DNA from: Sulfurimonas sp.
GTDB taxonomy: Bacteria > Campylobacterota > Campylobacteria > Campylobacterales > Sulfurimonadaceae
NCBI GenBank assembly: GCA_021161305.1
Contig: JAGHAW010000188.1
Span: 1 to 32,771, forward strand
DNA length: 32,771 bases
Direction of reading: 5' to 3'
Shown here: one piece after another, positions 7,683-10,089 of the stretch
How the letters are laid out: each line of letters starts with the position of its first letter
Position numbering within the stretch: position 1 is the stretch's first letter
Notes under the pieces: model-generated
What the model was told of the DNA's origin: nothing
What the model saw: the letters and a program-made list of their open reading frames with translations, nothing else
Database searches by the model: none
Position numbers and translations under genes: made by a program

Positions 7683-8728
7683 TGAATCTATTTTTTATTG
7701 AATTTCGTGATCCACTTTTTGGCATTATTATCTTTTTTGTTCTTATCTTTGTGATTACATTTTTTTCATATTGGTGGAGTACTTTTAGAAAAAATAAGGA
7801 TTATAGACATTTAGATAGATTTTTGAGACAGTTTCGCTCCCTTCCATCTCAAAAAGAGTTAAAGGTGCTAATCAAAAGTGGGGAATTATCAGAAAAATCT
7901 TGGCTCCTTTTGGCACAATCCTACTCTAAAAATGGTAATTATGAGAAAAGTATAGAGATTTATAATGAAATCTTAAAAGTAGGGAGCAAGCAAAACTACC
8001 GAGACACTCTTTTTTTGCTTGGTCGTACATATTTTAAAGCTGGTTTTTTAGAACGAGCAAAACAGATTTTTTTAGAGATACTTAAAAATAATCCTAGAAC
8101 ACCACAGGCACTTGATTACCTGCTTTTGGTTTATGAACATATGAGAGAGTATGCTCTTGCGCTAGAGGTGTCAGAGTCATTAGATGAGTTAAACAGAGAT
8201 ATAACAAATGATGTAGCTTATCTTAAATCTTTGTCAATTTTAAATGATGTTAAAACTTCTAATGATGTTAAGGCTACTTCGTTGCTTAAGATATATAGAG
8301 CAAACCATCAACTTACATATATGGTGTTTGAGTATCTTTTTCGTGTAGATCCAAAACTTGCTTGGAACAATTTTGACAGCTCAAAAAGTGAACTTTTAAC
8401 AGATATTTTATGGCAAGTAAACCCAAAAGATTTGGATTTGGATATAATAACACAAAATGGCTATTTAAGGGAACTATACACAGCTCGAGGTGATATTGAG
8501 TTGGCAAGCAAAAGTTCTGTTTTTGAGTTTGATGTTCTTATAAATCTCAAAAACAGAGCCAATGCAACCTTGAGTTTTGAGTATATTTGTGATAATTGCA
8601 AACAAGTTTATCCATTTGCATTTAGTCGCTGTTCGCATTGTCACTCTATTGATACCAGTAGGGTTGAATTTAGTCTTAGTAAAGATTATCATAGGGATTT
8701 TAGTGAAGAAAATAACTCTTTTCAGTGA
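7682..8728 (+). CDS. LapB/YciM-like protein (N-terminal TM, TPR repeats, C-terminal rubredoxin-like CxxC..CxxC)
   Basis: TM 'GIIIFFVLIFVITFFSYWW'; TPR 'LGRTYFKAGFLERAKQIF'; 'YICDNC...RCSHCHS'. Confidence 0.8.
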   Translation: MNLFFIEFRDPLFGIIIFFVLIFVITFFSYWWSTFRKNKDYRHLDRFLRQFRSLPSQKELKVLIKSGELSEKSWLLLAQSYSKNGNYEKSIEIYNEILKVGSKQNYRDTLFLLGRTYFKAGFLERAKQIFLEILKNNPRTPQALDYLLLVYEHMREYALALEVSESLDELNRDITNDVAYLKSLSILNDVKTSNDVKATSLLKIYRANHQLTYMVFEYLFRVDPKLAWNNFDSSKSELLTDILWQVNPKDLDLDIITQNGYLRELYTARGDIELASKSSVFEFDVLINLKNRANATLSFEYICDNCKQVYPFAFSRCSHCHSIDTSRVEFSLSKDYHRDFSEENNSFQ

Positions 8729-9131
8729 TGGAAGTGCTTTAGGTAACCCAGGACCCGGTGGTTATGGTACGATTTTACTCTATGGTAAAACGGAAAAAAT
8801 CATTAGTGGTGGTGAAAGATATACTACCAACAACAGAATGGAGTTAAGAGGTGCTATAGAGGGCTTAAAAGCTCTTAAAGAAGCATGTGAAGTAGAGATA
8901 ATTTCCGATTCGTCTTATGTTGTAAAAGGTATAAATGAGTGGTTAATTTCTTGGATAAAAAGAGATTTCAAGAAGGTTAAAAATATAGATTTGTGGAAAG
9001 AATATATAGAAGTATCGCAAAAGCATAAAGTAGTGGCGACTTGGGTTCGAGGACATGATGGGCATATAGAAAATGAACGCTGTGATGAACTGGCTCGCAA
9101 TGAAGCAGAGGAACAAAAAAAATTATTGTAA
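8703..9131 (+). CDS. rnhA: Ribonuclease HI
   Basis: FSDGSALGNPGPGG, TTNNRMEL, SDSSYV, WVRGHDGHIENERCD. True start is GTG 8703 with AGGGA upstream; the ORF-track extension to 8577 overlaps the previous gene. Confidence 0.97.
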   Translation: MKKITLFSDGSALGNPGPGGYGTILLYGKTEKIISGGERYTTNNRMELRGAIEGLKALKEACEVEIISDSSYVVKGINEWLISWIKRDFKKVKNIDLWKEYIEVSQKHKVVATWVRGHDGHIENERCDELARNEAEEQKKLL

Positions 9132-9135
9132 GGAG

Positions 9136-9404
9136 AAGCTCCTAATCATAAAATAACCCCAATTTCAGAAGCTTAAAAAAAGGGCTAATGTGAGGCAAAA
9201 ATCTGCAGTTGCACATATTGTGCTTCAAAGATTTTTAACGAAGCAGTAGCTCTTTTTTTAAACTTCCCTTCGGGCGATAAGTAAATAGCCCTATTGCGTC
9301 GTTAGATTTATTTGGATTAGACAAACTAGTCCTGCATAAATCTGCCTAGCACTAGAGCTATTTACTTATCGCTGAAGTTGGGGTTATTTTATGATTAGGA
9401 GCTT
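9136..9404. mobile_element. MITE-like palindromic element with 33-bp terminal inverted repeats and two internal hairpin arms
   Basis: 9136-9168 AAGCTCCTAATCATAAAATAACCCCAATTTCAG matches the reverse complement of 9372-9404 with 1 mismatch. Internal arms at 9168-9266 and 9274-9372. AGCT at 9137-9140 and 9400-9403 is a possible target-site duplication. No ORF inside. Confidence 0.75.
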
Positions 9405-9408
9405 GTTT

Positions 9409-10089
9409 ATGACTAAAGATATAAAATTTTTAGAAGAGAGTTTAGGATATAAATTCAGAGATAAAAAGCTCATTATCGAAGCGCTGACACATAAAAGTTA
9501 CAAACAGCCCTACGATAATGAGCGTCTGGAATTTTTAGGTGATGCTGTTTTGGATTTGATAGTTGGTGAGTTTTTATATAAAAAATTTCCAAAATCTGCG
9601 GAGGGAAATTTATCTAAAATTAGAGCTTCTCTTGTTAATGAGAGTGGATTTGATAAATTGGCACGTTATCTTAAGCTTGGAGATTTTATCTATCTCTCTA
9701 ATGCTGAAGAAAATAATGGTGGTAGAGAGAAATCTTCTCTTCTTTCAAACGCTTTTGAAGCCGTTATGGGTGCTATTTATCTTGAATCTGGTCTAAAAAT
9801 TGTTAATGATATTGCTGTAAAACTTATAGAAGACAATTATCAGGAAATATCTCTTGACTCTCTGTTTAGAGATTTTAAAACTACTTTGCAGGAACTTACA
9901 CAGGCTAGATGTGGAATGACACCAGAGTATAAGGTAGTAGCTAGTCGTGGACCTGACCATCTAAAAGAGTTTGAGGTAGCTGTTTTTATAGAAGATAAAG
10001 AGTTTGCAAGAGCCGTTGGAAAAAGTAAAAAAATTGCACAGCAAGAGGCTGCTGAGTTAGCTATTGATGTATTACAAAGGAAGAAGTAG
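9409..10089 (+). CDS. rnc: Ribonuclease III
   Basis: ALTHKS, NERLEFLGDAVL, NAFEAVMGAIYL, and dsRBD 'DFKTTLQELTQ...GKSKKIAQQEAA'. ATG 9409 with AGGAG at 9397-9401. Confidence 0.98.
   Translation: MTKDIKFLEESLGYKFRDKKLIIEALTHKSYKQPYDNERLEFLGDAVLDLIVGEFLYKKFPKSAEGNLSKIRASLVNESGFDKLARYLKLGDFIYLSNAEENNGGREKSSLLSNAFEAVMGAIYLESGLKIVNDIAVKLIEDNYQEISLDSLFRDFKTTLQELTQARCGMTPEYKVVASRGPDHLKEFEVAVFIEDKEFARAVGKSKKIAQQEAAELAIDVLQRKK

What the first reader, a model, noticed from the sequence alone, without database searches (positions are those of the whole stretch)
9168..9372. Twin structured motif on opposite strands with fully compensatory stems
Seen: arm 1 (+, 9189-9245) reads TGT GAGGC [AAAAATCT] GCAG TT GCACA-TAT-TGTGC TT CAA [AGATTTTT] AACGAA GCA. 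Arm 2 (read on -, 9351->9295) reads TGC TAGGC [AGATTTAT] GCAG GACTAG-TTTGT-CTAATC CAA [ATAAATCT] AACGAC GCA. The unpaired parts (AGGC, GCAG, CAA, AACGA.GCA) are conserved. The 8-bp stems differ at 4 of 8 positions with every change compensated, and the apical hairpins are unrelated in sequence. Each motif sits on its own 20-24-bp basal stem (9168-9187/9247-9266; 9274-9297/9349-9372), and the arms are joined by CC-TTCG-GG (9267-9274). Inference: this is within-element covariation, so selection acts on a folded single-stranded structure with defined internal loops, one copy per strand. That would suit left/right recognition ends for an ssDNA-acting transposase or nuclease, or a structured RNA made in either orientation. 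I cannot assign it to a named family. It is the best candidate here for an undescribed system.
Basis: partly seen in the sequence, partly recalled or inferred. Interest (0 to 1): 0.85.

Follow-up and report, generated by a model that had tools for sequence, protein, structure and literature searches.

The report
Folded MITE core swapping transposase ends
This is a 270-base gene-less repeat whose twin-armed core recurs in two bacterial phyla while its ends match different insertion sequences (IS630 and IS5), so it likely hitch-hikes on several kinds of transposase and keeps a core that is predicted to fold as a single strand, for a purpose still untested.

Summary
None of 29 orthologous rnhA junctions carries it. 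It is a dispersed family: 17 closed copies in this genome, 67 of 119 genus genomes, full copies in Pseudoalteromonas, Photobacterium, Vibrio and Azotobacter. Length (69 of 84 at 263-272 bp) and tip-to-motif distance (54-57 nt) stay fixed, while the ends fall into unrelated classes matching real IS630 and IS5 elements, with matching target duplications. The ISs examined lack the core. Stems covary and favour G·T over A·C 120:3 on each arm's own strand. Best reading: a MITE, this copy likely moved by an IS630 transposase, whose selected single-strand core has changed ends repeatedly. Its function is unknown; I lean to ssDNA recognition. No RAYT link, transcription-strand bias or Rfam match. ERIC shares an end sequence but fails the model. 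New variant of a known kind.

The parts
9137..9403 (.). Whole non-autonomous element (MITE), about 267 bp, predicted to fold into a Y: outer stalk, two arms, junction hairpin
   Evidence: none of 29 orthologous rnhA junctions has it
9136..9168 (+). Left terminal inverted repeat / outer stalk; IS630-type end
   Evidence: 23 matches in a 32-column alignment to the 3' end of IS630 element L258, subfamily copies 22-24 of 29 to its two ends; L258 is IS630
9372..9404 (-). Right terminal inverted repeat / outer stalk
   Evidence: 33 nt, 97% complementary
9168..9266 (+). Arm 1 hairpin: basal stem plus the loop module (GA-G-GC facing AA-C-GAA), 8-bp stem and apical hairpin; predicted to fold on the + strand
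   Evidence: model R3 hit 9183-9252, E 1e-11 (this arm was in the training set)
9266..9274 (.). Junction mini-hairpin CCCTTCGGG
   Evidence: 46 of 100 junctions have this sequence and 96 of 100 fit C-T-N-Y-G in the loop
9274..9372 (-). Arm 2 hairpin with the same module, predicted to fold on the - strand
   Evidence: model R3 hit 9288-9357, E 9.5e-16 (in the training set)
9397..9401 (+). AGGAG, Shine-Dalgarno-like tract inside the right repeat, 7 nt before the likely rnc start (ATG 9409); inferred to supply rnc's ribosome site
   Evidence: sequence; function inferred
8703..9131 (+). rnhA, RNase HI, upstream flank (start codon inferred); not part of the element
   Evidence: Pfam RNase_H E 9e-41
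9409..10089 (+). rnc, RNase III, downstream flank; not part of the element
   Evidence: Pfam Ribonuclease III and dsrm

Best explanation
The stretch is one copy of a dispersed, gene-less ~270-bp element with IS-type ends, likely moved in trans by an IS630-family transposase, whose two-armed core is predicted to fold as a single strand, is shared with copies bearing IS5-type and other ends, and is likely read as single-stranded DNA by a protein not yet identified. Shown: insertion at this site, many dispersed copies, ends that match autonomous IS630 and IS5 elements, 2-, 3- or 4-bp target duplications by end class, fixed geometry, covariation and strand-specific wobble pairs. Inferred (about 0.9): ordinary DDE transposition by the IS whose ends a copy wears. 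Inferred (about 0.8): the core is kept by selection on its fold and has captured new ends more than once, probably when an IS end lands beside it and fold-back copying makes both ends alike. Inferred (about 0.5): the fold acts on DNA exposed at replication forks or in a cruciform; the inverted twin arms put one module on whichever strand is exposed, about 55 nt from the transposon tip, and binding there raises copying or survival of the element.
For: Insertion: 28 of 29 relatives have rnhA-rnc gaps of -11 to 53 nt, 1 has no rnc beside it, none has the motif. Empty orthologous sites with 84-89% flank identity hold one TA (L070) or one TTAA (L067). Ends: exact or near matches to the repeats of IS5 elements L228, L229, L232, L234, L235, L238 and IS630 elements L258, L261, L263, L272, L280, L281; 7 of 7 transposases sent pass the IS5 or IS630 cut-off, and the L272 fragment matches IS630 below the cut-off. 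Duplications: 4 bp in 13 of 22 IS5a-ended copies (cross-pair control 0.18), 3 bp in 10 of 13 TACCAA-ended copies (0.42), TA on both sides in 35 of 72 AG-ended copies. Core not taken from these ISs: among 53 transposase and 30 RAYT loci only L270, a separate full element, matches. Geometry: 69 of 84 copies 263-272 bp; tip-to-AGGC 54-56 in every class with a working anchor, with 51-75 allowed, and 57 in five one-armed rods. Fold: 91.5% of cells paired against 71.9% shuffled, covariation 0.59 against 0.25 and at most 0.19 when slid, on arms collected by a sequence-only profile; G·T:A·C 120:3. End capture: IS5-ended cores rejected as one clade, p-AU 0.0095. DNA lean: no transcription-strand bias (6:5); 30 of 84 copies lie between divergent genes; apical loop CNNG in 97 of 107 and junction reading C-RNA-G on one strand, both resembling stable DNA loops (recalled).
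Against: No binding protein or activity was found. DDE transposases act on duplex DNA, so a single-strand step must be assumed. The junction also reads as an RNA UNCG-type tetraloop, and 12% wobble pairs suit RNA equally well. This copy lacks the TA duplication (flanks GA and TG). No IS630 transposase was found in this 81% complete genome, and presence of the core does not track IS630 or DDE_Tnp_1 hits across 119 genomes (p 0.82 and 1.0). IS5b-ended copies show a 4-bp duplication in only 3 of 10 (control 0.24), and the TA count for AG-ended copies is close to its control (0.39). The tree has long branches, composition bias and an unsettled bootstrap. The orientation test has only 11 informative cases.
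Confidence: 0.6

Rival explanations
1. A MITE whose core is selected as RNA: in a transcript of either orientation one module folds and makes the insertion harmless (blocks Rho, shapes RNase III or RNase E cutting, supplies a ribosome site), so copies that keep it survive.
For: 43 of 84 copies lie between co-directional genes and several end 0-4 nt before a start codon; the right repeat here carries AGGAG before rnc; junction reads cUUCGg or cUACGg in 70 of 100; MITE RNAs such as ERIC and Correia alter mRNA decay (PMC10969869 and PMC3184786, sections read).
Against: One-armed copies show no sense-strand bias (6:5; ERIC 3:3); 30 of 84 lie between divergent genes; it does not explain the fixed tip-to-module distance.
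Confidence: 0.25
2. The core is a REP-like substrate of an HUH (RAYT) nuclease that cuts or spreads it as single-stranded DNA, and the IS ends are a second vehicle.
For: The GC/AA two-by-two loop resembles the AA-GC bulge needed by the E. coli TnpA-REP (PMC8266576, passages); many arms read GTAG or GCAG before the apical hairpin; this genome has two RAYT-like genes.
Against: None of 30 RAYT loci carries the motif; no co-occurrence (34 of 67 against 28 of 52, p 0.85); the two RAYT-like genes here are bounded by other inverted repeats; target duplications follow the DDE end class.
Confidence: 0.07
3. The core has no function: it is an old MITE interior whose stems are kept paired by palindrome self-correction, and its loops are merely inherited.
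For: Both ends of a copy stay nearly perfectly complementary, and some palindromes run on into the flanks, as arm-to-arm copying would give; invariance of the loop letters in the cross-phylum sets was partly imposed by my search patterns.
Against: Self-correction is strand-symmetric and does not predict G·T:A·C of 120:3; AG-C and AACG stay invariant among 42 arms collected by a sequence-only profile while stems turn over; length and tip distance survive changes of end.
Confidence: 0.08

Closest known systems
IS630-mobilised bacterial MITEs (RUP; ERIC, listed as MITEEc1_IS630)
   Same: Non-coding, intergenic, multicopy, terminal inverted repeats, TA at the ends, stable fold (PMC2229807, first third read; PMC11602168, passages). 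The E. coli ERIC end matches the TATACCC end class at 17 of 20 letters, and the 6 best matches among all tips are of that class.
   Different: About 270 bp, Y-shaped, two arms folding on opposite strands; the same core also carries IS5-type ends with 4-bp duplications. ERIC is a 127-bp single rod, shows the loop letters in register in only 3 of 10 copies and at 62-nt rather than ~41-nt spacing, and is not found by models R1 or R3.
Type II MITEs (similarity to the IS confined to the terminal repeats)
   Same: Matches the definition in PMC10969869 (parts 1-2 of 6 read): only the ends match the ISs.
   Different: The papers read describe the interior as decayed IS sequence; here one interior is conserved in structure across end classes, IS families and two phyla.
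bcr1 of the Bacillus cereus group
   Same: Cruciform-like fold with two independent stem-loops kept by compensatory changes (PMC3184786, passages).
   Different: bcr1 has 5-bp direct repeats and is described only from Bacillus; no sequence comparison was run; no exchange of IS ends appears in what I read.
E. coli REP / BIME and TnpA-REP
   Same: An AA-GC mismatch loop in a strand-specific hairpin, inverted doublets (PMC8266576, passages).
   Different: REPs are 29-37 nt and lack IS-type terminal repeats; no RAYT link here.

Membership tests
MITE | Short, no transposase gene | tested here: met
   267 bp; no ORF of 80 aa or more inside, the rnc ORF call overlaps only its last 14 nt
MITE | Terminal inverted repeats like those of an autonomous IS | tested here: met
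MITE | Multicopy, with filled and empty orthologous sites | tested here: met
MITE | Target-site duplication (family level) | tested here: met
   4 bp 13 of 22, 3 bp 10 of 13; single TA or TTAA at empty sites
MITE | Target-site duplication at this copy | tested here: not met
   flanks read GA and TG; decay after insertion is inferred
IS630-mobilised MITE | Moved by an IS630 transposase | not testable with these tools
   End similarity only; no IS630 hit in this incomplete genome
ERIC | About 127 bp single rod with the ERIC consensus | tested here: not met
   267-bp Y; no model hit to 10 E. coli ERIC loci or to the E. coli chromosome
ERIC | ERIC-type terminal sequence | tested here: inconclusive
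   Met by the TATACCC class of the family, not by this copy
REP / REPIN | Flanks a RAYT gene or co-occurs with one | tested here: not met
REP / REPIN | Cleaved by TnpA-REP as single-stranded DNA | not testable with these tools
   needs an in vitro assay
Rfam structured RNA families | Score above a family's gathering threshold | tested here: not met
   window and 27 further loci: only rRNA and tRNA hits, none on the element
bcr1 | Sequence homology and 5-bp direct repeat | not tested
   no bcr1 sequence was held; duplications here are 2-4 bp

The most novel reading that the evidence does not exclude
A selfish single-strand-folding core, widespread in bacteria, that is itself the evolving unit: it serially captures the ends of unrelated insertion-sequence families, holds its loop module a fixed ~55 nt from the transposon tip as a ruler for an unidentified host or mobile protein, and has ERIC as a shrunken one-armed relative.
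Probability: 0.35. Interest if true: 0.85.

Novelty: new variant of a known kind. Interest (0 to 1): 0.68.

Why it matters
Bacterial MITE interiors are usually treated as decayed IS sequence. Here one interior is conserved in fold and geometry across IS630- and IS5-type ends and two phyla, which points to a selected function and a binding partner nobody has named. It gives a defined ~60-nt module and a fixed spacing to mutate, and occurs in cultured strains (Pseudoalteromonas, Azotobacter), so the old question of why ERIC-like repeats keep their structure becomes directly testable. Locally, the copy puts a long stem over the likely ribosome site of the RNase III gene.

Tried and rejected
Rfam: nothing at gathering level; weak E-value hits were long-hairpin miRNA models and chance. 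Viral contigs: one pattern gave 0 hits, two looser ones gave 240 loci of which 0 passed a pairing filter. Plasmid and phage BLAST: no match for the window copy or L612 in plasmids, none for L665 in phages. Autonomous form with the core: not found; 0 of 43 flanking ORFs (43 of 62 sent; one weak IstB/DnaC-like hit) and 0 of 29 ORFs beside hits without terminal repeats (29 of 52 sent) were transposases. Sequencing runs: no RNA holder listed; four DNA runs laid as contigs gave no clean empty allele. Promoter and terminator scan: at chance level. RAYT partner: rejected. Model R2 had a structure one column out of register and was never used. The AG-class anchor and several end labels were faulty; I use instead, where a few labels may still be wrong. 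The first tree may have mixed orientations. ERIC showed no leading/lagging bias by eye (4:6, positions, origin and terminus recalled). Literature: ten full-text searches found no description of this family or of a MITE core shared between IS families; subscription papers (original ERIC, SonMITE, Chunjie and bcr1 papers) and ISfinder could not be searched, and no supplements were read, so single subfamilies may already be listed there.

Full report
Observation. The stretch folds far better than shuffles on both strands and with RNA or DNA energies (z -10 to -16; 0 of 200 shuffles as good). With it each strand is predicted to fold into a Y: a 33-bp stalk, two arms of about 100 nt and a junction hairpin. 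The flanks are rnhA and rnc. The host is likely a Sulfurimonas: most named records with the same subfamilies carry that name.

It is an insertion and a dispersed family. Of the 30 best rnhA loci among 116 matching genomes, the 29 from relatives have no motif; 28 have rnc within -11 to 53 nt. This genome gave 34 arm hits at 23 places, all between ordinary genes; 17 are closed by terminal repeats, the rest are at contig edges or broken. A covariance model of the arm (R1) hits 67 of 119 genomes of the genus and 11 of 150 drawn from the phylum, in 7 families, 3 of the hits weak. Of 49 elements from other genomes, 14 had both flanks mapping to one contig here; 7 showed a gap of 4 nt or less, and the closest pairs keep a single TA (L070) or TTAA (L067).

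The fold is under selection, one arm per strand. On 42 arms collected with a sequence-only profile, 91.5% of cells pair (shuffled 71.9), covariation is 0.59 (shuffled 0.25, slid at most 0.19), and the inner helix is 98% paired; these sequences are related, so the shuffle counts are not probabilities. In 126 distinct 8-bp stems read on the motif strand there are 120 G·T and 3 A·C pairs; basal stems give 106:32 and the outer stalk 128:93. Split by arm it is 37:0 and 28:1, on opposite strands; where arm 2 lacks the strict motif it still folds better on the bottom strand in 67 of 67.

Constant geometry, unrelated ends. A pattern scan gave 117 loci in named Sulfurimonas, Sulfurospirillum, Arcobacter and other Campylobacterota records; of 149 arm hits, 38 were at edges and 6 had no terminal repeat, and 84 elements were delimited, 69 of them 263-272 bp. 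Their ends fall into at least eight dissimilar classes. I pulled 30 DDE_Tnp_1 and 30 DDE_3 loci from the genus. Two end classes match the repeats of IS5 elements of 1.23-1.28 kb, and others match IS630 elements. The window's subfamily matches IS630 element L258 at 22-24 of 29 letters, the window copy at 23 of 32 columns. Duplications follow the end: 4 bp in 13 of 22 (control 0.18) for one IS5 class, 3 bp in 10 of 13 (0.42) for the TACCAA class, TA on both sides in 35 of 72 AG-ended copies. Against this, the second IS5 class gave 3 of 10 (control 0.24), and the window copy has GA and TG. The tip-to-AGGC distance is 54-56 nt in each class with a working anchor. The ISs do not contain the core: of 53 transposase and 30 RAYT loci only L270, a separate full element, matched. 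That IS630 duplicates TA and IS5 four bases is recalled knowledge.

Breadth. One metagenome scan (about 4,900 stretches estimated, chance matches included) returned 121 loci; 62 had a paired inner stem and 50 were closed by inverted repeats, 243-299 bp, in DNA of 29-70% GC, 40 of them with a second arm by a loose pattern (L619 and L620 are one element). The pattern fixed the loop and junction letters, so their invariance in alignments A2 and A3 is by construction, and inner-stem pairing was a filter; the length, outer stalk, second arm and basal covariation were not. Flanking proteins name Pseudoalteromonas, Thiogranum and a gammaproteobacterium for 3 of 10 looked up, the rest unnamed. Full, unannotated copies lie in Pseudoalteromonas shioyasakiensis, Photobacterium DA100, Vibrio campbellii and Azotobacter chroococcum. 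P. shioyasakiensis also has five 160-bp one-armed rods with the module 57 nt from the tip. In a tree of 90 dereplicated cores the 15 IS5-ended ones fall in two places and are rejected as one clade (p-AU 0.0095); one group sits beside IS630-ended cores with which it shares a variant arm 2. Long branches, composition bias and some doubtful labels weaken the tree.

How it likely works. Movement is best explained as ordinary borrowed DDE transposition, for this copy by an IS630 enzyme; none was found in this 81% complete assembly, and presence of the core does not track transposase hits across genomes, a weak test in fragmented assemblies. New ends are likely gained when an IS end comes to lie beside the core and fold-back copying evens the two ends; this is inference. 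Why the core is kept is open. I commit to recognition of the folded DNA strand, at about even odds within that step. Hints: no bias to the transcribed strand among one-armed copies (6:5 of 37 examined, 11 informative), 30 of 84 copies between divergent genes, apical CNNG loops in 97 of 107, and a junction that reads C-RNA-G on one strand, like stable DNA loops as I recall them. The junction equally reads as an RNA UNCG-type loop, so an RNA role that softens the insertion stays the main rival. A RAYT substrate was tested and not supported, though the GC/AA loop resembles the REP bulge.

Known relatives. It meets the MITE definition at family level. ERIC shares an end (17 of 20) and, in 3 of 10 E. 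coli copies, the loop letters in register, but fails both models: a possible relative, not a member. Papers seen: PMC2229807 (first third), PMC10969869 (parts 1-2 of 6), PMC3184786 (section 4 and passages), and passages of PMC3733652, PMC8266576, PMC11602168, PMC6006769 and PMC2759123. None describes this family or one core under several IS families' ends; ten searches are listed under Tried and rejected, and subscription papers, supplements and ISfinder were not seen. Earlier notes of this scan mention one likely member and other MITE cores shared across phyla; they are unchecked leads.

Verdict. Real, mobile, a MITE by class, with a conserved single-strand core that has changed transposase ends. 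New variant of a known kind; interest 0.68.

Noticed in passing
window 9397-9409: The right repeat holds AGGAG 7 nt before the rnc start; in an rnhA-rnc transcript it would be locked in the 33-bp stalk, a possible RNase III target in RNase III's own message. The five sister copies aligned also end a few bases before an ATG.
   Followed up: partly
L108 1394-2254 and L109 1083-1924 (G000 C180, C212): Two RAYT-like Y1 genes each bounded by one 25-31-nt inverted repeat starting GGGTCAG, like the TIRtrons of PMC3733652.
   Followed up: partly
L305 about 1500-1586 (G055): A lone arm with the full module directly upstream of tRNA-Thr(GGT) in the tuf tRNA cluster, the only model hit in that genome; possibly a domesticated copy.
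   Followed up: no
G000 C125 about 2788: Chimeric remnant: a TACCAA-class tip joined to the inner stalk typical of IS5-ended copies.
   Followed up: partly
L328 1790-2810 (G214 C14): Two degenerate core pieces flank a HEPN plus nucleotidyltransferase gene pair.
   Followed up: partly
L136, L013, L026, L065, L095, L118, L328: Small extra hairpins inserted inside arms, several with the same CCC-N3-GGG motif as the junction.
   Followed up: no
G000 C284 6248-6590 and beyond: The palindrome runs on for more than 70 nt outside the element near a contig end; fold-back copying or an assembly artefact.
   Followed up: no
L261, L286 (G156): IS630 loci with perfect inverted repeats of about 99 nt or more some 740 bp apart.
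   Followed up: no
L165, L154: Internally deleted one-armed derivatives that keep both ends, an ERIC-like layout.
   Followed up: partly
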